Shown here piece after piece: positions 53,276-62,962 of a stretch of 64,000 nt of DNA (its first letter is position 1; the number at the start of each line of letters is the position of its first letter). Under the pieces are notes generated by a model. It did not search any database. It saw only the letters and a program-made list of their open reading frames with translations, and was not told the origin of the DNA. The translations under genes were made by a program, and so were the position numbers. Source of the DNA: Paracoccaceae bacterium (lineage in GTDB: Bacteria; Pseudomonadota; Alphaproteobacteria; Rhodobacterales; Rhodobacteraceae); the NCBI GenBank assembly GCA_041397305.1, contig JAWKWX010000004.1, positions 94,429-158,428 on the forward strand. The letters run 5' to 3'.

Positions 53276-54130
53276 ATGAAGTGGCAGGGTCGGCGCGGCA
53301 GCGACAATATCGAGGATCGGCGGCGCATGTCGGCCGGCGGCGCCATAGGGGGCGGCGGGCTTGGACTGGTGGTTGTGGCGCTTCTGGTCTGGGCACTCGG
53401 CGGCGATCCGATGGCGGTTCTGCAGCAGGGGCTGGGTGCGCAGCAGATCGGCGGTACCGGCGGTGGCGAAGTCACCGAAGCCGATCAGCGGGCCGCCGAG
53501 TTCGTTTCGGTCACGCTTGCCGATACCGAGGCGATCTGGGGGCAAATCTTCGAACAGGAGCTGGGCCGCGCCTATCAGCCGGTGACCTTGGTGCTGTTCA
53601 AGGGCGGCACCCAGTCGGGCTGCGGCGGCGCCACGGCGATGACCGGGCCGTTCTACTGTCCGATCGACAAGAAGGTCTATCTCGACACCGATTTCTTCGC
53701 GACGCTTTCCCAGCGGCTTGGCGCCAAGGGCGATTTCGCCGCCGCCTATGTCGTCGCCCACGAAATCGGCCATGCGGTGCAGGATCAGCTCGGCATTCTC
53801 GAGAAGACCACGCAGATCCGCCAGCAGTCGAGCGAGGCCGACAGCAACGCGATTTCGGTGCGGGTCGAGTTGCAGGCCGACTGCTTCTCGGGCGTCTGGG
53901 CGCGATATGCAGCCGATCAGCTTGGCACGCTGGAACAGGGCGATATCCAGGAGGCGGTGGATGCCGCGGCCCGGATCGGCGACGATACGTTGCAAAGAAG
54001 CGCGGGCCAGCGCCCGATGCCCGACAGCTTTACCCACGGCACATCGGACCAGCGCCAGAAATGGCTCGCGACCGGCTATAAGCAGGGTACGATACGGGCC
54101 TGCGATACATTTTCGGCAAGCTCGCTCTGA
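53276..54130 (+). CDS. YpfJ-family putative neutral zinc metallopeptidase
   Basis: Start MKWQGRRGSDNIEDRR (typical YpfJ N-terminus), one TM helix, HEIGHAVQ zinc motif. The ORF-track N-terminal extension is spurious. Confidence 0.85.
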   Translation: MKWQGRRGSDNIEDRRRMSAGGAIGGGGLGLVVVALLVWALGGDPMAVLQQGLGAQQIGGTGGGEVTEADQRAAEFVSVTLADTEAIWGQIFEQELGRAYQPVTLVLFKGGTQSGCGGATAMTGPFYCPIDKKVYLDTDFFATLSQRLGAKGDFAAAYVVAHEIGHAVQDQLGILEKTTQIRQQSSEADSNAISVRVELQADCFSGVWARYAADQLGTLEQGDIQEAVDAAARIGDDTLQRSAGQRPMPDSFTHGTSDQRQKWLATGYKQGTIRACDTFSASSL

Positions 54131-54184
54131 GCCCGGAATGACGCTTGAAAGCGTGACCAGGGGCGGCTAAGGGTCTTGGCGGTG

Positions 54185-54268
54185 GCCCGAGTGGCGGAAT
54201 GGTAGACGCAGCGGATTCAAAATCCGTCGCCGCAAGGTATGCGAGTTCGAGTCTCGCCTCGGGCACCA
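54185..54268 (+). tRNA. tRNA-Leu (anticodon CAA)
   Basis: Acceptor stem GCCCGAG/CTCGGGC + ACCA. D arm GCGGAATGGTAGACGC. Anticodon loop TT-CAA-AA. Long variable arm. T arm GCGAG-TTCGAGT-CTCGC. Confidence 0.9.
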
Positions 54269-54638
54269 GATTCGCAGCGAATCGTCGGTGGCACCTGTTG
54301 CGATACCGGTGGTCAAAAGGCGCCCCTGCCGATTTCCATGCGGGCCCGGGCCACCATGAAATGTCGGGCCAGCCAACCTGGCGGCTGCGGCCGGTCATCG
54401 CAACTGTTGTGATAATGGCAACGCGCAGCGACCTCGCGGCGGCGTCATCGGGCCTCCGGCTGACCCGATGACCTGTTGGGGCACGCAGTGATCGTTTTTT
54501 GTCTGACTTTCGGAAATAATCGCGGGGCGTGGTGTGACGCCACGTCACCGCGGCCGCGGGGCGGGCGCCCAAATTTCGCCACATTTCGAACGGTATAAGT
54601 AACCTATTCGTAAGTATAAATTCTCTACGCTCTTTCAG

Positions 54639-55232
54639 ATGACCCTTCGGGGATTTTGTAACTGGCCCGTACGTTTGACGGCCGCTTTTGTTGGAACCAC
54701 CACATTGTCTTGTCTGACCTCAGGAACATTCATCACGACACTCAGGGGCGAAAAGCCGGTGGAACAGCTTGTTCCCGGCGATCGTGTCGTCACCCGCGAT
54801 GACGGATTGCAGACGGTACGTTCGGTGCGCCGTCGCGACTTCGACTACGGGCAACTCGCCTCCGCCCCCCGGATGCAGCCGGTTCTCATCACCGTTGGTG
54901 CCGTGTCGCGCGGCCTGCCGGAGCGCGAGCTGCTGGTCAGCCCGTCGCTGCGCATCCTGATGCAGACAGCCGAGCGCGATCATCTGGTGGCGGCAAGTGA
55001 TCTTGCAGACGGCCACGCGATCCGGACCTGCTCGGTCCTCGGCGTGCGCTATGTCCATATCGGCTTCGACCGCGACGAGGTGATCCTCGCCAACGGTGTC
55101 TGGGTCGAGGCCTTTCAACTTGCCGAGCGGCAGGACGATGTCCCGCAATCGGCGCAGACAGAGGAATATCTGGAGCTGTTTCCTGCCGGGCAGGACAGCG
55201 AAACGGTTGCGGCGCGACAGGACGGTATCTGA
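54639..55232 (+). CDS. Stand-alone Hint (bacterial intein-like, Hint_2-type) domain protein H1, 197 aa
   Basis: Domain starts at Cys25: C-LTSGTFITTLRGEKPVEQLVPGDRVVTRDDGLQTV... Later blocks are LLVSPSLRI (His replaced by Leu), DEVILANGVWVEAFQ, and the tail AQTEEYLELFP. Paralogous to the C-terminus of the RTX protein. Confidence 0.75.
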   Translation: MTLRGFCNWPVRLTAAFVGTTTLSCLTSGTFITTLRGEKPVEQLVPGDRVVTRDDGLQTVRSVRRRDFDYGQLASAPRMQPVLITVGAVSRGLPERELLVSPSLRILMQTAERDHLVAASDLADGHAIRTCSVLGVRYVHIGFDRDEVILANGVWVEAFQLAERQDDVPQSAQTEEYLELFPAGQDSETVAARQDGI

Positions 55233-55298
55233 GCGCGCGATGATGGCGGCAATCCCGTTCGGGGCCGCCGTGTGACGAGTAAGGTCGAGGAGTTTCGA

Positions 55299-55406
55299 AT
55301 GACGACGGTTCTGGTTCTTCTTTCCTGCGGTCTCCTGGGGCTTTCGCCCCTGGCATTTGTAGTGCTGCAGCAGCGCGACCGCATCGCTGTTCGTATCTCG
55401 ATCTGA
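55299..55406 (+). CDS. Possible 35-aa membrane peptide (MTTVLVLLSCGLLGLSPLAFVVLQQRDRIAVRISI)
   Basis: My own translation. GAGGAG lies 7 nt upstream of the ATG. Hydrophobic. Located between the two stand-alone Hint genes. Confidence 0.35.
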   Translation: MTTVLVLLSCGLLGLSPLAFVVLQQRDRIAVRISI

Positions 55407-55471
55407 TGGTTTCGACGCCGGGCGGTTCGCCCCGGCGCCGCATGTGAATTTGAGTAGAAGGTAAAAGGTCA

Positions 55472-56152
55472 ATGAAGCACACATTTTTCCAGACCGAGGC
55501 CGCTATGGCTGATCAGATCTCCGGTCTCGCCGAAACCCGCCTTCAGGGCGCGGCAGGCGAGGAACGGCTGGTAGAGGCCAAGGGGCGCGACGGCCAGCCG
55601 GGCGTAGCGGCTGAACATCTGGAAGCGGCCCCCTGTTTCACTCCGGATGCCGAAGTTCTGACCGAGCGCGGGCCGGTAGCCGCGCATCTCTTGAAAGTCG
55701 GCGACAGGGTCATGACCCGCGATCACGGCCTTCTGACCGTGCGCCACATTGGCCGTCGGCAGTTCGGCTGGCGTGCGCTCGGCCTCATTCCGCTGCTGCG
55801 CCCGGTGGTCATCGCGGCGGGTGCGCTCGGCCATGGTCTGCCCGCGCGTCAGATCGCACTGTCGCCCGAACACGGTATCGCCAGTGCCGGTGCCGACGGC
55901 CTTGGCATGCAGATCGTTCAGGCCAAGCGCTATGTCGGGACCCCCGGCGTCGAGCGCGGCGCCTTCCACAACGTGACCTACATCCAGATCGGCCTCGACC
56001 AGCCCGCGCTTGTGAATGTTTCCGGCTTGTGGTGCGAGACCCAGGCAGGGGCCAGCGCCACCGTCGCGCAGACGCCGATTGCCGTGGTCGGGGAGGTTTT
56101 GCAACCTGCGAAGGCCACCAAAGCCGACCCCGAGGTCAGCGTCGCGGCCTGA
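55472..56152 (+). CDS. Stand-alone Hint (Hint_2-type) domain protein H2, 226 aa
   Basis: Domain starts at Cys55: APC-FTPDAEVLTERGPVAAHLLKVGDRVMTRDHGLLTV..., then IALSPEHGI and VSGLWCETQ. Has a 54-aa acidic N-terminal leader with no signal peptide. Confidence 0.75.
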   Translation: MKHTFFQTEAAMADQISGLAETRLQGAAGEERLVEAKGRDGQPGVAAEHLEAAPCFTPDAEVLTERGPVAAHLLKVGDRVMTRDHGLLTVRHIGRRQFGWRALGLIPLLRPVVIAAGALGHGLPARQIALSPEHGIASAGADGLGMQIVQAKRYVGTPGVERGAFHNVTYIQIGLDQPALVNVSGLWCETQAGASATVAQTPIAVVGEVLQPAKATKADPEVSVAA

Positions 56153-56185
56153 GACCGTCCCGCAAGGCATCCTGTGCCCTTCCGG

Positions 56186-56223
56186 TAACGCCAGATGCCC
56201 AATCTGGCGTTATCACGTTTTTA
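56186..56223 (+). terminator. Rho-independent terminator after H2
   Basis: Perfect 11-bp stem TAACGCCAGAT / ATCTGGCGTTA, 5-nt loop, then TCACGTTTTTA. Confidence 0.8.
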
Positions 56224-56444
56224 GTTTACGCACCGACCTGCTGAAAGCTGCTATTCGATCAGGAATGGCGCCGGTGTCTGGTGTTGCTGTGGTTGGTGGT
56301 TTGGGGAGGCGGCGCAATGTTTCGGGTGACGGCCATAGAAATAGCCAAATCAGACGGCATTAACGCGCCGGAAGGGCACTGCTTGGCATCTGCCCTTACA
56401 TCGTTTGGGCGGTATCGGGCAGAGAAAACCGGCAGTTAGTCCTC

Positions 56445-59400
56445 ATGGCGACGATCCTCGGCACCGCGGGCAACGACACGACACTTACGGGCACCGGCGC
56501 AAGTGACCTGGTCAGCCTTTTCGGCGGCAATGATTCCTTCGCGGCGAACGGCGGCAATGACACGGTCTTTGCCGGGACCGGCGACGACACGATTGACGGT
56601 GGTTCGGGCGCGGATTCGCTTCTGGGCGAAGACGGCAACGACCTTTTGCTGGGCGGGTCGGGTAACGACCGGCTTTTCGGCGGCAACGACAACGACACGC
56701 TGATCGGCGGCGCCGGATCGGATTCACTGGACGGCGGGGCCGGATTCGACACGGCCGACTACAGCGCCTCGGGGTCCGCGGTCTCGGTCAATCTTGCGAC
56801 GAACGTCAATACCGGCGGCGATGCCGCCGGAGACACGCTGACCGGGATCGAGGCGGTGATCGGCTCGGCCTTCAACGATACGCTTGTCGGAAGCGCCGGA
56901 GATGAGGCGTTTTTCGGCGGCGCCGGAAACGATTCCATTGATGGCGGAAGCGGCAACGACACGCTGGTCGGCGGTGCGGGCAGCGATACGCTGATCGGCG
57001 GCGCTGGCTTGGATGAGGTCAGCTATGCCACCTCGGCCTCGGCGGTATCGGTCAACCTCAGCGCCAATATCAATACCGGCGGCGACGCGGCAGGCGATAG
57101 CATCTCGGGTGTCGAGGCCATCACCGGGTCGGCGTTCAACGACACGCTGATCGGGTCGAACACCGGCGACAGCCTGTTCGGCGGAAGCGGCAACGACAGT
57201 CTTGCCGGGCTTGGCGGCAACGACAGCCTGTTCGGCGGTATCGGTGCAGACACGATCGACGGCGGATTTGGCAACGATTCCATAGATGCGGGTGCCGACA
57301 ACGATTCCGTGTCGGGTGGCGCCGGAGCCGACACGATCTTCGGCGGCGCGGGGCTCGACACGATCACCGGCGGCGACGGGGCCGATTCAATCGATGCGGG
57401 CGACGGCGCCGACAGCGTGGATGCCGGGGCCGGCAATGACACGGTTCTGGGTGGCCTTGGTGACGATACGATCCTGGGTGGCGGCGGATCGGATTCGATA
57501 TCGGGCGGCGATGGCAACGATGTTCTTTACGGCGACGACACCGTCACGGCCACGGCCACAAACGAAGCGCTGCACTGGAATCTCGCGGGGGCGGACGAGG
57601 CGAGCATCTCCAACGGCTTCGTCCAGGACACCGGCCTCATGGATGTCCGGGTCAGCTTCGTCACCACGGCGCTTGCCTCGACCCAGACGGTAGAATCCAC
57701 CGACACGGTCTATATCGGCACCGGCGAGCCGATGAGTGCGACGTCGAACCTGAACCTGACCGGCGCGGGCTCCGGGACGACCTCGACGACCTATATCGAC
57801 TTTGCCGCATCAGCAGGCAGTGGCGTGACCGACGCGGTCAGCAATGCTCAGTTCCGGATCAACGATATCGATGCGAGCACCGGCAACTGGCAGGACGTCA
57901 TTACCGTCAACGCCTATGATTCGAACGGCAATCTCATCCCGGTCACGATCACGCTGAGCGGCAACGATTCGGTTTCCGGCAATACGATCACTGCGGCGAA
58001 TACCGCCGACACTGCCAGTTCGCCGCTGGGTTCCGCCCTTATCAACATCGCGGGACCGGTCGCGCGGATCGAGATCATCTATGCCAACGTCGGCACCTCG
58101 ACGCAGTCGCTCTGGGTCAGCGACGTCCATTTCACGACCATCCCGCAGACGGCGGGCAACGATACGATCGACGGCGGCACGGGCAACGATTCCATTTTCG
58201 GCGGCGCTGGCGATGACAGCATTCTTGGCGGTGCGGGCCTTGATACGATCTTCGGCGGCACGGGCAATGACACGATCGACGGCGGCACCGAGGCCGATTC
58301 GATCGACGGCGGCGACGGCAACGATTCGATCCTCGGCGGCACGGGGAACTTCGCCGACACGCTGATCGGGGGGCTGGGCGACGATACGCTGCGCGGTGAC
58401 GACGGGGCGGACCTGCTTTTCGGCGGCGACGGCAATGACTCGCTTGATGGTGGGCTTGGCAATGACACGATCGATGGCGGCATTGGCAACGATTCCATTC
58501 TCGCGGGCGATGGCAACGATTCCGTCACCGGCGGCGCGGGCCTCGACACGATCTTCGGCGGCGCGGGCAACGACACGATCGATGGCGGCACCGAGGCCGA
58601 TTCGATCGACGGCGGCGACGGCAATGATTCGATCCTCGGCGGCGCTGGCGATGACAGCATCACCGGCGGCGCGGGCCTTGATACGATCTTCGGCGGCACG
58701 GGCAACGACACGATCGACGGCGGCACCGAGGCCGATTCCATCGACGGCGGCGATGGCAATGATTCGATCCTCGGCGGCACGGGGAATTTCGCCGACACGC
58801 TGATCGGGGGGCTGGGCGACGATACGCTGCGGGGTGGCGACGGGGCCGACCAGCTCTTTGGCGGCGACGGCAACGACTCGCTCGACGGCGGCGACGGCAA
58901 TGACACGATCGACGGCGGGATCGGAGCCGACCGTCTGGATGGCGGTGCAGGTGACGACAGTCTGACGGGCGGCGACGGCAATGACACGATCTTCGGTGGC
59001 GACGGCAACGACACGCTAAATGGCGGCGCCGGCGCGGACAGCCTTGTCGGCGGGCTCGGATCCGACTTCTTCACCGGCGTCGGGATCGGCGATGTCATCG
59101 ACGGGTCGGAAGACACGCCCTCCAACGAGGTAGACGTCCTCGATCTCTTTGGCTCGGGCTGGACAAAGGCCACGACCAACATCCTTTATGCCGGGGGCAA
59201 TGACGAGGCGGGCACCGTCCAGTTCCTGGACAATCTCGGCAATATCATCGGCTCCCTGACCTTCTCGAACATCGAGAAGATCGTTCCCTGCTTCGCCGCA
59301 GGAACGGTGATCGAAACGATCCGAGGCGCGGTCGCGATCGAGGATCTCCTGCCCGGCGACCTCGTCCTGACGCGGGACAGCGGTTATCAGCCGGTGCTTT

Positions 59401-59876
59401 GGATCGGGCGCAGGGCCCTCACGGCACTGGATTTGCTGATCCAGCCCCAACTTGCACCGATCCGCATAGAGGCGGGCGCGCTCGGGCGGCGCGCGCCAGA
59501 GCGCGCGCTGACCGTCTCGCCCCAGCACCGCGTCCTTGTGTGCGGCAGCCGCGCCGAGCTGATCTCGGGCGAGACCGAAGTTCTGGTCGCCGCGACCCAT
59601 CTGTGCGGTCTGCCGGGCATCGAGCAGATAACGCCCGAGGACGGCGTGACATATTTTCATATGTTGTTCCGTCAGCATGAGATCGTCCTGACCGAGGGCC
59701 TGTGGACCGAGAGCTTTCAACCGGGCGCGGCCACGCTTGCCGGCATCGACGATGCGCAGCGCCGCGAGATTCTTGCCCTGTTCCCCGAACTTGCATCCGA
59801 TATCGCCTGGAATGCCTATCAGGCGGCGCGCTCCAGCCTGAGGGCACATGAGGCACGAGCGATCATCGCGGCCTGA
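56445..59876 (+). CDS. Large RTX (hemolysin-type Ca-binding nonapeptide repeat) protein with central non-repeat domain and C-terminal Hint domain, 1143 aa
   Basis: Dozens of GGxGxDxxx repeats in two blocks (aa 1-365 and 570-885). A central domain of about 200 aa (...FRINDIDASTGNWQDVITVNAYDSNGNLIPV...). Hint domain from Cys949 (VPC-FAAGTVIETIRG...TVSPQHRV...LTEGLWTESFQ). Confidence 0.9.
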   Translation: MATILGTAGNDTTLTGTGASDLVSLFGGNDSFAANGGNDTVFAGTGDDTIDGGSGADSLLGEDGNDLLLGGSGNDRLFGGNDNDTLIGGAGSDSLDGGAGFDTADYSASGSAVSVNLATNVNTGGDAAGDTLTGIEAVIGSAFNDTLVGSAGDEAFFGGAGNDSIDGGSGNDTLVGGAGSDTLIGGAGLDEVSYATSASAVSVNLSANINTGGDAAGDSISGVEAITGSAFNDTLIGSNTGDSLFGGSGNDSLAGLGGNDSLFGGIGADTIDGGFGNDSIDAGADNDSVSGGAGADTIFGGAGLDTITGGDGADSIDAGDGADSVDAGAGNDTVLGGLGDDTILGGGGSDSISGGDGNDVLYGDDTVTATATNEALHWNLAGADEASISNGFVQDTGLMDVRVSFVTTALASTQTVESTDTVYIGTGEPMSATSNLNLTGAGSGTTSTTYIDFAASAGSGVTDAVSNAQFRINDIDASTGNWQDVITVNAYDSNGNLIPVTITLSGNDSVSGNTITAANTADTASSPLGSALINIAGPVARIEIIYANVGTSTQSLWVSDVHFTTIPQTAGNDTIDGGTGNDSIFGGAGDDSILGGAGLDTIFGGTGNDTIDGGTEADSIDGGDGNDSILGGTGNFADTLIGGLGDDTLRGDDGADLLFGGDGNDSLDGGLGNDTIDGGIGNDSILAGDGNDSVTGGAGLDTIFGGAGNDTIDGGTEADSIDGGDGNDSILGGAGDDSITGGAGLDTIFGGTGNDTIDGGTEADSIDGGDGNDSILGGTGNFADTLIGGLGDDTLRGGDGADQLFGGDGNDSLDGGDGNDTIDGGIGADRLDGGAGDDSLTGGDGNDTIFGGDGNDTLNGGAGADSLVGGLGSDFFTGVGIGDVIDGSEDTPSNEVDVLDLFGSGWTKATTNILYAGGNDEAGTVQFLDNLGNIIGSLTFSNIEKIVPCFAAGTVIETIRGAVAIEDLLPGDLVLTRDSGYQPVLWIGRRALTALDLLIQPQLAPIRIEAGALGRRAPERALTVSPQHRVLVCGSRAELISGETEVLVAATHLCGLPGIEQITPEDGVTYFHMLFRQHEIVLTEGLWTESFQPGAATLAGIDDAQRREILALFPELASDIAWNAYQAARSSLRAHEARAIIAA
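58227..58967 (+). repeat. Nested intragenic duplication inside the second RTX block (units a 58227-58529, b 58530-58664, c 58665-58967)
   Basis: Units a and c (101 codons each) both begin GGAGLDTIFGGTGNDTIDGGTEADSIDGGDGNDSILGGTGNFADTLIGGLGDDTLRG. Unit b repeats the first 45 codons. DNA is near-identical over the first ~170 nt, with differences at third codon positions. Confidence 0.85.
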
Positions 59877-59879
59877 CGT

Positions 59880-60482
59880 TCAGCCAGGCGGCGGCGCCTG
59901 CCAATTGTCCCACTCTTCCGGTGTGTCGAGGTCGGTCAGGGCATGGCGGTCGGGCAGGGGCACGAGTTGGACCGGCCGCCCCTCCAGCAGCTTGCGCGCG
60001 CCGTGGTCGCCGGTCAGCACGCTCAGGTCGGCGAAAAGGCGGCGTGGCAGGATGACGGGATGGCCCGGCGTACCGTCGGCGCCCGTACCGCGTGCCGCAT
60101 GCGACGGGTCGCGGGCGAAAGCGCCGACGACGCGGGCGATATCCTCGCCGGTGATCTCCGGCATGTCCGGCAGGAGGATCATCAGCCCCTCCGACATCGC
60201 CGCCGCCTGCGCGCCCGCGCGGATCGAGGCCGACATTCCGTCGTGATAGTCGGGGATCGAAATGACTTCGGCGCCCGTACCCCGCAGGACAGCGGCGCGG
60301 GGGGCCGCGAAGGGGCCGCCGTCCGGGATCGTGACCACCACATGGGGCGCGATGCTGCGCGCCAGTCGCACTGTCCGTGAAAGCGCGGTTTCGGACCCGA
60401 CGCGTTCCATGAGCTTGTCGCGCCCCCGCATCCGGGAAGATGCCCCGGCCGCGGGAACGAGGATTGTCAATGTCGCAGCCAT
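59880..60482 (-). CDS. MobA/MocA-like nucleotidyltransferase (NTP_transf_3 family)
   Basis: 200 aa: LVPAAGASSRMRGRDKL N-terminal signature and LLPDMPEIT. Confidence 0.8.
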   Translation of the reverse strand: MAATLTILVPAAGASSRMRGRDKLMERVGSETALSRTVRLARSIAPHVVVTIPDGGPFAAPRAAVLRGTGAEVISIPDYHDGMSASIRAGAQAAAMSEGLMILLPDMPEITGEDIARVVGAFARDPSHAARGTGADGTPGHPVILPRRLFADLSVLTGDHGARKLLEGRPVQLVPLPDRHALTDLDTPEEWDNWQAPPPG

Positions 60483-60535
60483 GATCCGATTGAAGGACGA
60501 TGGGCCGCATTGGTCAAGACCTACCTCGGGGCGCT

Positions 60536-62962
60536 TTAGCCCCGCATCCGGGCCCCATCGGCATCCCAGAGCGGTGCGGACACCATCCGCGCCTTGCGGC
60601 GTTCACCGAGAATCTCGATCTCGCCCTCCAGCCCCTCGCGGATCAGCTCGACCGGCACGAAAGCCTGTGCGACCGACTTGCCGGTCCAGTGCGAATAGCC
60701 GCCCGAGGTGCAGAAGCCCACGACCTTGTCGCCGACCCACAGGGGTTCGTAACCGACCACATCGGCGTCAGCCGCCTCGATGACGAAGCAGCAAAGCCTG
60801 CGTCTGGGGCCCGCGGCCTTTTCGGCCATCGCTGGCGCCTTGCCGATCCATGCCACCGGCTTGTTCCAGCGGATGAAGCGGTCGATGCCGGTCTCGCCGG
60901 GGAAATAGTCCGGGCTGAATTCGCGCGTCCAGGAGCCGAACCATTTGTCGAGGCGGAGGGACATCATCGCCCGCATGCCGAAGGGCGTCAGCCCGAGGTC
61001 CTGGCCGGCAGTCCAGAGCGCATGCCAGAGGCTGCGTTCCTTCATGAAGTCGCAGAAGATCTCGTAGCCAAGGTCGCCCGTGTAGCTGACGCGCTGAACA
61101 AGACAATCGACCATGCCGACCGTGATCTGGCGCGCATCCATGAACGTGAACGCCTCGCCCGAGACATCGGCGCGGGTCACCCGCTGCAAAAGCTCGCGTG
61201 CCTTCGGTCCGGCGATCTGGAAGCCCGTGATCCGGTCCGAGACATTTTCGACGGCGACGCCCGGATCGAGGTTCTTCTCGAACCAGCGCAGGTGCTGGTC
61301 CTGTGCGCCGTAGGAGCCGGTGATCTGGAATTCACTTTCCGAAAGGCAGGTGACGGTGAAGTCACCGATGATCTTGCCCTTGGGGCTGAGCATCGGCGTC
61401 AGCGACAGGCGACCCGGTTTCGGAATCGCGCCCGCCATGATCCGGTCGAGCCAGGCGCGGGCGTTCGCCCCCTTCACCCTGAACTTGCCGAAATTCTGCA
61501 CCTCGTTGATGCCCACGGTCTCGCGCACGGCAAAGACCTCGCGCCGCGTGGCTTCCCAGGCGTTCGAGCGCTTGAAGGTGGGCGTTTCATAGCGCGACTC
61601 GCCCTCGGCCGCGAAATAGTTCGGGACTTCAAGGCCATACTGCTGGCCCCAGACCGCCCCCATCCCATCGAAGATGTCGTACATGGGCGTCGTGCGGAAG
61701 GGCCGCGCAGCGGGGCGTTCCTCGTTCGGGTAGCTGACCGAGAAGCGCATCTGATAATTCTCGATCACTTTCGGCACCGTGTAGCCCGGCGTCGTCCATT
61801 TGCCGAAGCGCGCCACGTCGAAGCCGCGCGGGTCGCATTCCGTCTCGCCATGTATCATCCATTCGGCGAGCGACTTGCCCATGCCGCCCCCCTGGGAAAA
61901 GCCCGCCATGACCGCGCAGGCCGACCAGTAATTCCTGAGACCCGGCACCGGGCCGATCAGCGGGTTGCCGTCGGGCGCAAAGGTGAAGGGGCCGTGGATC
62001 ACGCGCTTGACGCCGGTCCGTTCCAGAACCGGGAAGCGGCGATAGGCGAAGGCGACGGAATCCTCGATCTTGTCGAACTGTTCGTTCAGAAGCTCATGCC
62101 CGAAATTCCACGGCGTGCCATCGACAGACCAGGGTTCGCAGGGCTTTTCGTAGAAGCCGATGCAAAGGCCGCGCCCTTCCTGGCGCAGATAGCTTTCGCC
62201 GCCCGGGTCCATCACATGCGGAAACTCGCGGCCGGATTTCAGGATGTCCATGATCTCGGGGATATCATCGGTCACCAGATACTGGTGCGCCATCGGCAAA
62301 AGCGGCAGGTAGACGCCCGCCATGGCGCCGACTTCCCGCGCCCAGAGGCCGCCCGCGTTCACCACATGCTCGGCATGGATCGTGCCCTTTTCGGTCACCA
62401 CATCCCAGCTGCCATCGGCGCGCGGGTTGGTTTCGAGCACCTTGTTATGTTCGACGATCTCTGCCCCGCCCATCTTCGCGGCGCGGGCATAGGCGTGGGT
62501 GGTGCCGGACGGATCGAGGTGGCCATCCAGAGGATCGTAGAGCGCGCCGATGATCCCGTCGGTATTCACCATGCCGTCGGTGAATTTCGCCACCTCCTCC
62601 GGGCCGAGGATTTCGGTATGCAGGCCCATGTAGCGGTGCTTGGCGCGCTCTGCCTTCAGCATCTCGAAGCGCGCCATATTGTCGGCCAGCGTGATGCCGC
62701 CCACATGGTGGAGCCCGCAGGACATGCCGGTGATCTTTTCCAGTTCCTTGTAAAGCTGGATCGTATAGCCCTGCAGCGCAGCCATGTTCGTGTCGCCATT
62801 CAGCGTATGGAACCCGCCCGCCGCGTGCCAGGTCGACCCGGAGGTCAGCGTCGACCGCTCGATCAGCATCACGTCTTTCCAGCCGTATTTGGTCAGATGG
62901 TATAGGACCGAACATCCGACGACGCCGCCTCCGATGACGACGACCTGCACTTGTTCCTTCAT
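60536..62962 (-). CDS. Dimethylglycine/sarcosine dehydrogenase-family flavoprotein (DAO domain + GcvT aminomethyltransferase domain)
   Basis: Start MKEQVQVVVIGGGVVGCS (FAD dinucleotide fold), covalent-flavin context SGSTWHAAGG, C-terminal GcvT-like folate-binding domain. The ORF-track N-terminal extension (to 63094) is unlikely. Confidence 0.9.
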   Translation of the reverse strand: MKEQVQVVVIGGGVVGCSVLYHLTKYGWKDVMLIERSTLTSGSTWHAAGGFHTLNGDTNMAALQGYTIQLYKELEKITGMSCGLHHVGGITLADNMARFEMLKAERAKHRYMGLHTEILGPEEVAKFTDGMVNTDGIIGALYDPLDGHLDPSGTTHAYARAAKMGGAEIVEHNKVLETNPRADGSWDVVTEKGTIHAEHVVNAGGLWAREVGAMAGVYLPLLPMAHQYLVTDDIPEIMDILKSGREFPHVMDPGGESYLRQEGRGLCIGFYEKPCEPWSVDGTPWNFGHELLNEQFDKIEDSVAFAYRRFPVLERTGVKRVIHGPFTFAPDGNPLIGPVPGLRNYWSACAVMAGFSQGGGMGKSLAEWMIHGETECDPRGFDVARFGKWTTPGYTVPKVIENYQMRFSVSYPNEERPAARPFRTTPMYDIFDGMGAVWGQQYGLEVPNYFAAEGESRYETPTFKRSNAWEATRREVFAVRETVGINEVQNFGKFRVKGANARAWLDRIMAGAIPKPGRLSLTPMLSPKGKIIGDFTVTCLSESEFQITGSYGAQDQHLRWFEKNLDPGVAVENVSDRITGFQIAGPKARELLQRVTRADVSGEAFTFMDARQITVGMVDCLVQRVSYTGDLGYEIFCDFMKERSLWHALWTAGQDLGLTPFGMRAMMSLRLDKWFGSWTREFSPDYFPGETGIDRFIRWNKPVAWIGKAPAMAEKAAGPRRRLCCFVIEAADADVVGYEPLWVGDKVVGFCTSGGYSHWTGKSVAQAFVPVELIREGLEGEIEILGERRKARMVSAPLWDADGARMRG

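What the first reader, a model, noticed from the sequence alone, without database searches (positions are those of the whole stretch)
54269..59876. tRNA-Leu-flanked accessory locus with three paralogous Hint (bacterial intein-like) domains, only one attached to a cargo
Core synteny breaks directly after tRNA-Leu(CAA). A 370-bp non-coding stretch follows, ending in an unusually AT-rich patch (54580-54638). Then come three + strand genes whose only shared module is a 150-190 aa Hint_2/BIL-type autoprocessing domain that starts at a nucleophile Cys. The three domain starts are: H1 LSC-LTSGTFITTLRGEKPVEQLVPGDRVVTRDDG; H2 APC-FTPDAEVLTERGPVAAHLLKVGDRVMTRDHG; H3 VPC-FAAGTVIETIRGAVAIEDLLPGDLVLTRDSG. 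They also share downstream blocks: L.VSP.H, G(V/L)W.E..Q, and the tail AQ..E.L.LFP. Only H3 carries a cargo (948 aa of RTX repeats plus a central domain). H1 and H2 are essentially bare Hint domains with their own ribosome-binding sites, and H2 has its own strong terminator. B-type BIL/Hint domains at the C-termini of RTX-like proteins of Rhodobacter-type bacteria are established knowledge. As far as I know, the role of a cluster of cargo-less copies beside the fusion gene is not established. This is the best candidate in the window for an undescribed multi-gene system, for example trans-acting processing/ligation partners or decoys for the secreted RTX-Hint protein.
Basis: partly seen in the sequence, partly recalled or inferred. 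Interest (0 to 1): 0.7.

Follow-up and report, generated by a model that had tools for sequence, protein, structure and literature searches.

The report
Conserved three-gene Hint/RTX array
Three related self-cleaving-type (Hint) genes beside a tRNA gene are an old, inherited gene array found across Rhodobacter-type bacteria rather than a mobile island, and one cargo-less copy has lost its catalytic residues and always travels with an unannotated 35-residue membrane-peptide gene.

Summary
The three + strand genes are real, and all three hit Pfam Hint_2 (E 1e-39, 2e-30, 2e-53). Only H3 carries RTX cargo (948 aa). The "accessory locus / synteny break" reading is wrong. The same slot (DsbB–DedA–Zn-peptidase–tRNA-Leu(CAA) … MobA-like–DAO/GCV_T) holds a co-directional array of 1–4 Hint_2 genes in dozens of Rhodobacteraceae/Paracoccaceae genomes. 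The Hint domains form position-specific lineages: first (H1), middle (H2, almost always short) and last (H3).

H1 really starts at TTG 54705 (M-S-C…), so it has no N-extein. It has lost the block-B His, two other conserved His and the helical tail. It has gained new invariant residues and is under purifying selection (dN/dS 0.13). It is followed, in all 11 loci of its sub-lineage and nowhere else, by an unannotated 34–38-aa hydrophobic/basic small ORF (window 55299–55406).

H2 keeps the Cys/His dyad and a remnant of the pre-Hint linker. H3 has the full module: pre-Hint β-strands, Hint core and a ~50-aa helical tail.

H2 and H3 come and go independently across genomes, so an obligate three-gene system is not supported. 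Verdict: a new variant within the known B-type BIL family, of moderate interest.

The parts
54185..54268 (+). tRNA-Leu(CAA). It is a conserved upstream neighbour of the Hint array, not an integration scar.
   Evidence: ARAGORN and Rfam tRNA at 59.5 bits. A tRNA-Leu(CAA) lies within 1.5 kb upstream of the array in 46 of 73 assessable loci. No repeat of its 3' end occurs in 53900-60600.
54505..54704 (+). Conserved H1 leader / putative promoter plus 5'UTR. It contains the palindrome GTGACGCCACGTCAC (54534-54548), the direct repeat GCCCAAATTTCGCCACATTT (54567-54586) and the AT-rich patch (54580-54638).
   Evidence: About 95% identical to Frigidibacter RF13 and SD6-1, while the stretch just after the tRNA is divergent. 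The GCCA-repeat motif is found upstream of 9/20 bare and 6/65 cargo H1-clade genes, 3/43 H3 genes and 0/52 H2-type genes, against a background of 0.04 per kb. No Rfam family matches.
54705..55232 (+). H1: a 175-aa stand-alone, catalytically degenerate Hint_2 protein. TTG start, Cys codon at 54711-54713, no N-extein and no helical tail.
   Evidence: Pfam Hint_2 1.1e-39. Orthologues are 172-208 aa and mostly start M-P-C. The start is revised from the DNA alignments. It has L80, D104, D130, S38 and R40 where 113 cargo-bearing domains are invariant H, H, H, W and G. New invariant residues include Cys109. dN/dS is 0.13-0.14. It belongs to a monophyletic bare group of 18 inside the first-position clade.
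55299..55406 (+). Unannotated small ORF of 35 aa, MTTVLVLLSCGLLGLSPLAFVVLQQRDRIAVRISI. It has a hydrophobic N-terminal half, a basic C-terminus and a GAGGAG SD 7 nt upstream. It is the probable operon partner of H1.
   Evidence: Present in 11 of 11 loci of the degenerate-H1 sub-lineage (34-38 aa, GGAG-type SD, C-terminal charge +2 to +5). Absent after 8 of 8 other bare H1-clade genes, in 107 other inter-Hint gaps and in 492 random 300-bp windows. Not called in the RF13 or L002 gene tables.
55416..55437 (+). GC-rich hairpin (CGCCGGGCGGTTCGCCCCGGCG) after the small ORF, with no T-run.
   Evidence: Read from the sequence. The stem is conserved in RF13 and SD6-1. Its function was not tested.
55472..56152 (+). 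H2: a 226-aa short Hint_2 protein of the 'middle' lineage. The Cys codon is at 55634-55636, preceded by a 54-aa N-region that is a diverged pre-Hint linker. The Cys1/His80 dyad is kept; H104, H124, H130 and the tail are lost.
   Evidence: Pfam 1.7e-30. 40 of 44 H2-clade members are bare. hhalign of the H2-clade N-region against the cargo pre-Hint region gives probability 95% and E 3e-8, but the window's own copy is not individually significant. In the AF2 model the Hint core (residues 51-193) has pLDDT 80-96 and both ends are disordered. Foldseek hits only Hint folds. dN/dS is 0.17-0.25.
56184..56224 (+). Intrinsic terminator after H2 (13-bp stem plus T-run).
   Evidence: Terminator scan. The stem GGTAACGCCAGA...TCTGGCGTT plus T-run is conserved in RF13 and SD6-1.
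56445..59876 (+). H3: a 1143-aa RTX-Hint protein. RTX block 1 is 56445-57539, an unassigned central domain is 57540-58139 and RTX block 2 is 58140-59174.
   Evidence: 23 HemolysinCabind stretches, 43 GGxGxD-type motifs and 27-nt periodic repeats. The central domain has no Pfam or PDB match but recurs in 34 loci.
59175..59288 (+). Pre-Hint linker module of H3 (three predicted β-strands, ending ...FSNIEKIVP).
   Evidence: AF2 model of residues 901-1143: strands at fragment residues 11-40, pLDDT 71-83. The region is conserved among cargo-bearing proteins (consensus).
59289..59726 (+). H3 Hint core, with Cys949 as residue 1, Ser-Pro-x-His block B and three further invariant His.
   Evidence: Pfam Hint_2 2.1e-53. 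pLDDT is 85-98. All residues that are invariant in cargo-bearing domains are present.
59727..59873 (+). ~50-aa helical C-terminal tail (…LFPEL…AAR..L[KR]..E…L). It is conserved in cargo-bearing proteins and missing or degenerate in H1 and H2.
   Evidence: Five short helices with pLDDT 75-87. A180, R181, L184, K185, E188 and L192 are near-invariant in 113 cargo-bearing domains and lost in the bare lineages.

Best explanation
The interval is a vertically inherited, core-chromosome array of three anciently diverged B-type bacterial intein-like (Pfam Hint_2) paralogues. The array sits downstream of tRNA-Leu(CAA) in many Rhodobacteraceae/Paracoccaceae. The genes are lineage-specific orthologues (first, middle, last) that have evolved largely independently.

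H3 is the canonical form. It is an RTX-repeat protein whose last ~230 aa form a three-part module: a β-strand pre-Hint linker, a Hint core (Cys1, Ser-Pro-x-His block B and three more invariant His) and a ~50-aa helical tail. By analogy with tested B-type BILs, it is inferred to form a thioester at the X-Cys949 bond and release the 948-aa RTX part. The tail may serve as an export signal or as an acceptor/cleavage element.

H2 belongs to a lineage that has been short since before these genera diverged. It keeps the Cys1/His80 dyad, so it probably still performs the first acyl-shift/cleavage step on its own ~54-aa N-peptide. It has lost the tail and two to three of the conserved His.

H1 is the orthologue of the large first-position RTX-Hint gene. 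It lost its whole cargo in one old event, starts two codons before the Cys, and lacks the block-B His and the tail. It can no longer be a self-processing enzyme. Purifying selection, new invariant residues and an exclusive pairing with a 35-aa membrane-peptide gene indicate a neofunctionalised, non-catalytic Hint protein that most likely acts by binding, possibly at the membrane through the peptide.

Shown: architecture, synteny, lineages, residue loss, selection and small-ORF co-occurrence. Inferred: cleavage chemistry, secretion and the binding role.
For: - Hint_2 and RTX hits; Hint fold by AF2 and Foldseek.
- Synteny in RF13, SD6-1, a distant metagenome and dozens of genera.
- Slot statistics: tRNA-Leu(CAA) upstream in 46/73 loci, at least one shared flank in 49/61, all 82 arrays co-directional.
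- Position-specific clades in the Hint tree.
- In the 82 arrays every Hint domain ends within about 40 aa of the protein's C-terminus, and the same holds in the top 150 of an exhaustive census of 13,495 clusters.
- Cys1 is kept in 122/122 cargo-bearing and 67/73 bare domains.
- Near-invariant residue set in cargo-bearing domains, with specific losses in H1 and H2.
- Co-loss of Cys1 and His80: 59 keep both, 10 keep Cys only, 0 keep His only, 6 keep neither.
- dN/dS of 0.13-0.25 for the bare copies, similar to the H3 Hint domain and MobA.
- H1 start revised; single major cargo-loss event; new invariant residues.
- Small ORF in 11/11 versus 0/8, 0/107 and 0/492.
- N- and C-terminal cleavage by B-type BILs, as summarised in PMC7765530.
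Against: - There are no expression, secretion or cleavage data for any of these proteins.
- No type I secretion genes were seen within ±10 kb or among the window ORFs sampled.
- The catalytic roles of His80, 104, 124 and 130 are inferred from conservation and the intein analogy, not measured for Hint_2.
- Most bare H1 copies still keep Cys1, which is unexplained if the residue has no role.
- The loci were retrieved with H1-clade peptide patterns, so the sample is biased towards arrays that contain that lineage.
- The NJ tree has no support values.
- A few 'bare' calls are contig-edge truncations.
- The small ORF's sequence constraint is weak (dN/dS 0.4-0.7 over 35 codons).
Confidence: 0.6

Rival explanations
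1. One reading: the three genes form one functional system. The cargo-less Hint proteins would act in trans on the RTX-Hint protein as processing or ligation partners, thioester acceptors, or decoys/regulators of its cleavage or export.
For: - Bare and cargo-bearing Hint genes are adjacent and co-directional in many genomes. Patterns C-b-C, C-b-b and b-b-C account for 31 of 82 arrays.
- The bare copies are under purifying selection.
- H1 keeps Cys close to its N-terminus. In principle this could attack a thioester.
Against: - Components vary independently. 21 arrays are C-C with no bare copy, and 10 arrays hold only bare copies.
- 4 of 11 degenerate-H1 loci have no adjacent RTX-Hint gene.
- H1 lacks the block-B His and two other conserved His, and some orthologues have Phe in place of Cys.
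- H2 and H3 are separated by a conserved terminator.
- The H1-type promoter motif is absent upstream of the H2 lineage.
Confidence: 0.15
2. H1 and H2 are non-functional relics (5'-truncated pseudogenes) of former RTX-Hint genes that merely persist.
For: - Catalytic residues and the tail have been lost.
- Cys1 is lost only in bare copies, 6/73 versus 0/122.
- GC3 is slightly lower than in neighbouring genes.
Against: - dN/dS is 0.13-0.25, like neighbouring genes.
- ORFs of constant length are intact down to about 50% identity.
- Subfamily-specific new invariant residues have appeared.
- The start codon, leader and downstream small ORF are all conserved.
- The H2 lineage is bare in 40 of 44 members across many genera.
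Confidence: 0.05
3. The locus is a tRNA-Leu-targeted genomic island or other mobile accessory element.
For: - It lies directly after a tRNA gene.
- GC dips to 0.56-0.60 at 54400-54999.
- Cargo lengths are highly variable between genomes.
Against: - The same flanks and tRNA are found in many genera.
- No integrase or transposase appears in the ±10-kb gene tables.
- There is no att-like direct repeat.
- GC3 is close to that of neighbours.
- The GC dip is simply the conserved non-coding leader.
Confidence: 0.02
4. It is a polymorphic-toxin-type locus, in which a Hint domain releases a C-terminal toxin and the short genes are orphan toxin or immunity cassettes.
For: Hint domains are used as releasing peptidases in polymorphic toxin systems (established knowledge; A-type BILs in CDI and MafB-type proteins are cited in papers listed).
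Against: - Nothing follows the Hint domain except a conserved tail of 50 aa or less.
- There is no variable C-terminal domain and no immunity-like gene downstream. The next gene is a conserved MobA-like gene on the opposite strand.
- There are no PADLOC hits.
Confidence: 0.02

Closest known systems
B-type bacterial intein-like (BIL) domains / Pfam Hint_2 PF13403 (Amitai et al. 2003; Dassa et al. 2004, as summarised in PMC7765530)
   Same: H3, and by sequence H1 and H2 too, belong to this family. They have the Hint fold, an N-terminal Cys, an intein-like block B and no C-terminal His-Asn. They sit in hypervariable RTX-type proteins of alphaproteobacteria.
   Different: - The array sits in a fixed, conserved chromosomal slot with position-specific lineages.
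- H1 has no N-extein and lacks the block-B His, so it cannot be an autoprocessing domain in the described sense.
- H2 is a minimal form.
- A conserved pre-Hint β module and a helical tail accompany the cargo-bearing domains.
- A small membrane-peptide gene is tied to the degenerate subfamily.
Hedgehog C-terminal (Hog) autoprocessing domain
   Same: The order is cargo – Hint – short helical C-terminal region. The cargo is released through a thioester at the residue before Cys1. Foldseek matches 1at0 and 6tyy.
   Different: Sequence identity is 16% or less. There is no evidence for a sterol or other acceptor. The tail here could equally be a type I secretion signal.
RTX proteins exported by type I secretion (HlyA type), and the self-processing module of Neisseria FrpC
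   Same: H3 has Ca-binding nonapeptide repeats (23 Pfam stretches), an acidic Gly/Asp-rich sequence and a C-terminal non-repeat region. One relative is named 'type I secretion protein' by its source. FrpC-like proteins also self-cleave after export (my knowledge).
   Different: The C-terminus is a Hint domain rather than a classical signal. No ABC/MFP export genes are nearby. FrpC's self-processing module acts at an Asp-Pro bond and is not a Hint domain.
Catalytically dead enzyme homologues (pseudoenzymes) and Hint-like domains that lack splicing residues (for example Vint and other divergent Hint groups, PMC2362128)
   Same: H1 keeps the fold, has lost key catalytic residues and remains under selection.
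   Different: I know of no described bacterial stand-alone pseudo-Hint lineage, and none that is paired with a small membrane peptide.

Membership tests
B-type BIL / Hint_2 (PF13403) | Significant match to the family profile, and a Hint fold | tested here: met
   H1 scores 136.6 bits, H2 106.8 bits and H3 181.1 bits against a cut-off of 28.4. The H2 and H3 models have confident Hint cores. Foldseek returns only Hint-fold structures.
B-type BIL / Hint_2 (PF13403) | Nucleophilic Cys/Ser as first residue of the domain, preceded by an N-extein to be cleaved | tested here: inconclusive
   Cys is present in all three. H3 has a 948-aa N-extein and H2 has 54 aa. H1 has only Met-Ser before the Cys, so the feature is met for H3 and H2 and not met for H1.
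B-type BIL / Hint_2 (PF13403) | Intein-like block B (T/S-x-x-H) | tested here: inconclusive
   H3 has SPQH and H2 has SPEH, but H1 has SPSL with the His replaced by Leu. The His is invariant in 113 cargo-bearing domains and present in only 10 of 21 bare H1-clade members. Met for H2 and H3, not met for H1.
B-type BIL / Hint_2 (PF13403) | No canonical C-terminal His-Asn plus downstream nucleophile (this distinguishes the family from inteins and A-type BILs) | tested here: met
   Read directly from the sequences and alignment. The domains end in G-x-W-x-E-S/A-F-Q, and no terminal HN-[CST] is present.
B-type BIL / Hint_2 (PF13403) | Autocatalytic N-terminal (and atypical C-terminal) cleavage | not testable with these tools
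   This needs protein expression with and without Cys-to-Ala. Only the literature summary is available.
RTX / type I secretion substrate | Tandem GGxGxDxUx nonapeptide repeats | tested here: met
   H3 only: HemolysinCabind E 1.3e-121 with 23 stretches, 43 motif matches and 27-nt DNA periodicity. H1 and H2 have none.
RTX / type I secretion substrate | Dedicated ABC transporter and membrane-fusion genes linked to the substrate gene | tested here: not met
   None appear in the ±10-kb gene tables of two syntenic loci or among the 15 window ORFs scanned. Unlinked export genes elsewhere in the genome cannot be excluded.
tRNA-linked genomic island | Integrase, att direct repeat of the tRNA 3' end, variable presence among relatives, atypical composition | tested here: not met
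   No integrase and no att repeat. The locus is conserved across genera. GC3 is 0.73-0.80, against 0.78-0.9 for neighbours.
Polymorphic toxin system with a Hint releasing domain | Variable toxin domain C-terminal to the Hint domain, plus an adjacent immunity gene | tested here: not met
   The Hint domain lies at the extreme C-terminus in all 197 array genes and in the top 150 census hits, with a tail of about 50 aa or less that is conserved. The downstream gene is a conserved MobA-like gene on the opposite strand.

The most novel reading that the evidence does not exclude
The degenerate, N-extein-less Hint protein H1 and its co-inherited 35-aa membrane peptide form a previously unrecognised two-component module. 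In this reading a pseudo-Hint adaptor is tethered at the inner membrane and acts in trans on RTX-Hint proteins, for example by capturing or blocking their thioester intermediate, or by gating their export or surface retention. That would give the first physiological role for bacterial intein-like domains beyond self-cleavage.
Probability: 0.12. Interest if true: 0.75.

Novelty: new variant of a known kind. Interest (0 to 1): 0.45.

Why it matters
B-type BIL/Hint_2 domains are very abundant. An exhaustive search found 13,495 clusters at 50% identity. The domain is enriched, together with RTX repeats, in fast-responding marine Rhodobacteraceae (PMC12487129). Yet their biological role has stayed open since they were described in 2003.

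This analysis turns an apparently odd local cluster into a defined, widely conserved three-lineage array. The array contains natural 'dissection products' of the module: the full form, a minimal form that probably still has the catalytic dyad, and a catalytically degenerate form paired with a small membrane peptide. It is also present in genetically tractable species. Rhodobacter capsulatus has the large–short–large version, and Cereibacter spp. have a single bare copy.

That gives concrete constructs and mutants for testing three questions: what the Hint domain, the pre-Hint linker and the helical tail each do; whether Hint folds have been recruited for non-catalytic roles in bacteria; and whether the small ORF encodes a new small membrane protein.

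Tried and rejected
- **Island hypothesis.** I looked for att repeats, integrases and a compositional anomaly. All were negative.
- **Known RNA element in the leader.** Rfam at E ≤ 1 found only the tRNA.
- **CtrA-like or CRP-like boxes in the leader.** The GTAAC-N6-GTAA motif and the GTGAC-N5-GTCAC palindrome occur only in the three closest genomes. I did not pursue them as general motifs.
- **Co-regulation through a shared promoter motif.** The GCCA direct repeat is specific to H1-clade promoters and absent upstream of the H2 lineage.
- **H2 N-region as the pre-Hint linker.** A single-profile search was significant for only 7 of 40 H2-clade members and not for the window's copy. Only the profile-profile comparison supports family-level homology.
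- **Identity of the H3 central domain and of the tail.** There were no Pfam, NCBIfam or PDB sequence matches.
- **Defence-system models.** No PADLOC hits.
- **Literature.** Eight full-text searches found no functional study of Hint_2 proteins in Rhodobacterales, no exoproteome paper that mentions Hint, and nothing on stand-alone B-type BILs (paper check). The primary BIL papers are not held.
- **UPGMA clustering of the Hint domains.** It was dominated by outliers, so I used the NJ tree instead.

Full report
**What is there**

The window carries tRNA-Leu(CAA) at 54185-54268. Three + strand ORFs follow at 54639-55232, 55472-56152 and 56445-59876. All three match Pfam Hint_2 (PF13403) far above the 28.4-bit cut-off: H1 136.6 bits, H2 106.8 bits and H3 181.1 bits. 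H3 also has 23 HemolysinCabind stretches, 43 GGxGxD-type motifs and 27-nt DNA periodicity. No other Hint copy exists in the 64 kb. The three domains are only 30-36% identical to each other, so they are old paralogues. The core observation is therefore correct.

**Corrections to the description**

ATG 54639 is not a conserved start. It is ACG in Frigidibacter sp. SD6-1. In both RF13 and SD6-1 the frame hits a TGA eleven codons later. What is conserved, in close and distant orthologues alike, is a TTG/GTG two codons before the Cys. H1 is therefore 54705-55232, 175 aa, beginning M-S-C. It has no N-extein.

This is a conserved promoter/leader, not island debris. No Rfam family matches it.

Only H2 has a clear Shine-Dalgarno sequence. 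The hairpin terminator after H2 is real and conserved.

**Not an accessory locus**

Look-ups of H1 orthologues showed the same gene order in Frigidibacter sp. RF13 (H1 89% identical) and in a metagenomic relative whose H1 is only 51% identical. That order is GyrA … AsnC-type regulator, DsbB, DedA-like, Zn-peptidase, Hint genes, MobA-like, DAO/GCV_T.

A scan of one genome per species returned 80 loci from Rhodobacter, Cereibacter, Thioclava, Roseovarius, Gemmobacter, Sinirhodobacter, Albidovulum, Frigidibacter and others. The slot statistics are:
- At least one flank is shared with the window in 49 of 61 assessable loci.
- A tRNA-Leu(CAA) lies within 1.5 kb upstream of the array in 46 of 73.
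- All 82 arrays are co-directional.

There is no att-like repeat and no integrase in the gene tables. GC3 of H1, H2 and H3 (0.73-0.80) is close to that of neighbours. The rest of the window is housekeeping: CheA, Opp, BamA, LigA, RecG and MnmA.

**Anatomy of the array across genomes**

The 82 arrays contain 197 Hint ORFs. In every one the Hint domain lies at the extreme C-terminus.
- 122 have more than 120 aa before the Cys (up to 2,480 aa), and 116 of those have at least 3 RTX motifs.
- 73 are 'bare', with 120 aa or less before the Cys.
- The commonest array patterns (C = cargo-bearing, b = bare) are C-C (21), C-b-C (15), C-b-b (11), b (7) and b-b-C (5, the window's type).

An NJ tree of the domains splits them by position:
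- A first/single-position clade of 88 (67 cargo-bearing, 21 bare) that contains H1.
- A last-position clade of 47 (46 cargo-bearing) that contains H3.
- A middle-position clade of 44 (40 bare) that contains H2, with a sister group of 13 last-position genes that are mostly bare.

So the array is an old three-lineage arrangement. H2 belongs to a lineage that has long been short. H1 is the orthologue of large first-position RTX-Hint genes, for example the 2,076-aa protein of R. capsulatus. Within the first-position clade, 18 of 21 bare members form one monophyletic group. That points to one main cargo-loss event. Two of the three other 'bare' members are contig-edge truncations.

An exhaustive profile-free search found 13,495 representative clusters at E ≤ 1e-3. 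In the top 150 the Hint domain is always C-terminal, and about 15 of them have 120 aa or less before it.

**The canonical module**

Cargo-bearing domains (113 in the H1 and H3 clades) share a near-invariant residue set. It comprises C1, T28-R29-D30, W38, G40, S77-P78-x-H80-R81 (the intein block-B equivalent), H104, H124, H130-E131, G137-x-W139-x-E141-S-F-Q-P-G and a conserved tail (A180, R181, L184, K185, E188, L192).

An AlphaFold model of H3 residues 901-1143 (pLDDT 86) shows three β-strands before the Cys, the Hint core, and about 50 aa of short helices after it. No solved structure is close in sequence.

By analogy with tested B-type BILs, which cleave at the N-terminus and atypically at the C-terminus (PMC7765530), H3 is inferred to release its RTX part through a thioester at Cys949. 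Whether the helical tail is a type I export signal, a cleaved C-peptide or a Hedgehog-SRR-like acceptor element cannot be decided here. No export genes are linked.

**The bare copies are maintained genes with altered chemistry**

dN/dS against RF13 and SD6-1 is as follows.

| Gene | dN/dS |
|---|---|
| H1 | 0.13-0.14 |
| H2 | 0.17-0.25 |
| H3 Hint domain | 0.12-0.14 |
| MobA-like gene | 0.11-0.14 |

Cys1 is kept in 122 of 122 cargo-bearing domains and in 67 of 73 bare ones (Fisher p = 0.002). Every bare copy that lost Cys1 also lost His80: 59 keep both, 10 keep Cys only, 0 keep His only and 6 keep neither (p = 4e-5, not corrected for phylogeny). This supports a coupled catalytic dyad.

H2 keeps that dyad but has R104, Q124, P130 and no conserved tail. 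Its clade typically has D104 and Q124. The N-region of the H2 clade is homologous to the pre-Hint linker at family level (hhalign probability 95%, E 3e-8). The window's own copy is diverged and not individually significant, and it is modelled as disordered. The H2 Hint core is confident and matches only Hint folds: BIL2, inteins, Hedgehog and the C. thermocellum BIL.

H1 has L80, D104, D130, S38, R40, no tail and no N-extein, so it cannot be a self-processing domain. Its sub-lineage (the window plus L002-L011) has instead fixed new residues, including an invariant Cys109 where other domains have V, A or I. That indicates a new function rather than decay.

Sixty-six bases after the H1 stop lies a 35-codon ORF at 55299-55406, with a GAGGAG Shine-Dalgarno sequence. 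It encodes MTTVLVLLSCGLLGLSPLAFVVLQQRDRIAVRISI.

An equivalent ORF follows H1 in all 11 loci of the degenerate-H1 sub-lineage, including three loci where H1 is the only Hint gene. Each equivalent has 34-38 codons, a GGAG-type SD, an uncharged hydrophobic N-terminal half and a net +2 to +5 C-terminus.

It is absent after the 8 other bare first-position genes, which keep all four His. It is also absent from the other 107 inter-Hint gaps and from 492 random 300-bp windows. It is not called in the RF13 or L002 gene tables. Sequence constraint is weak (dN/dS 0.4-0.7 over 35 codons), as is usual for small membrane peptides.

The exclusive pairing suggests an H1–peptide operon. H1 may act at the membrane.

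**Is it a three-gene system?**

The evidence is against an obligate one:
- H2-lineage genes are missing from about half of the arrays, including 21 C-C arrays.
- Four of the 11 degenerate-H1 loci have no adjacent RTX-Hint gene.
- A conserved terminator separates H2 from H3.
- The direct-repeat promoter motif of first-position genes (window 54567-54586) is absent upstream of the H2 lineage.

A looser functional relationship, such as a decoy or regulator, is not excluded.

**Comparison with known systems, and novelty**

H3 is an ordinary member of the B-type BIL/Hint_2–RTX class. H2 is a minimal member. H1 matches the family profile and, by that match, the fold (it was not modelled here), but fails two defining features: an N-extein to cleave and the block-B His. 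The polymorphic-toxin, genomic-island and defence readings all fail their defining features.

Eight full-text searches found no functional work on these proteins and no description of stand-alone B-type BIL lineages. The primary BIL papers could not be read, so an earlier mention cannot be ruled out.

I rate the finding as a new variant of a known kind. The ingredients are known. The new elements are the conserved positional array, the degenerate stand-alone lineage and its small-ORF partner.

**Caveats**
- The loci were retrieved with H1-clade peptide patterns, which biases the sample.
- The tree is NJ without support values.
- N-extension lengths are maxima, measured from the first possible start codon.
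- The Fisher tests ignore shared ancestry.
- All chemistry, secretion and binding statements are inferences.

Noticed in passing
window 55299-55406 (+): An unannotated 35-aa small ORF with a GAGGAG SD, a hydrophobic N-terminal half and a basic C-terminus. It is present after H1 in all 11 loci of the degenerate-H1 sub-lineage and nowhere else tested.
   Followed up: yes
window 54505-54704: A highly conserved H1 leader. It contains the palindrome GTGACGCCACGTCAC (54534-54548), an 11-bp-period direct repeat GCCCAAATTTC/GCCACATTT (54567-54586) that recurs upstream of first-position Hint genes in distant genomes, and a CCC-UUCG-GGG-type hairpin inside the false ORF start (about 54643-54652). The regulator is unknown.
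   Followed up: partly
window 58160-58459 and 58598-58897: A 300-nt internal duplication (89% identical) within the second RTX block of H3. It indicates recent repeat expansion. H3 orthologues differ greatly in length: 704 aa in SD6-1, 984 aa in RF13 and 1143 aa here.
   Followed up: partly
window 57540-58139 (H3 residues 366-565): A Thr/Ser/Asn-rich central domain between the two RTX blocks. It has no Pfam, NCBIfam or PDB sequence match, yet it is detectable in Hint-array proteins of 34 loci, in both first- and last-position genes.
   Followed up: partly
window 56330-56375, upstream of H3: A conserved stretch, AATAGCCAA(A/T)T..GACGGCATT(A/G)AC, shared with RF13 and SD6-1 in an otherwise divergent H2-H3 spacer. 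It is a possible H3 promoter or operator.
   Followed up: no
window 55416-55437: A GC-rich hairpin without a T-run directly after the small ORF. Its stem is conserved in RF13 and SD6-1. It could be a leaky terminator or attenuator between the small ORF and H2.
   Followed up: no
L017, L020, L042, L045, L052 (Rhodobacter sensu stricto): The large–short–large Hint array is intact but sits in a different chromosomal context, with none of the window's flanking genes. The array seems to have moved as a unit in this genus.
   Followed up: no
window 58079-59182 (-) and other long antisense ORFs across the RTX region: Long ORFs on the opposite strand (for example 367 aa, Pro/Ser-rich) are by-products of the GC-rich 27-nt repeats. 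They are not genes.
   Followed up: no
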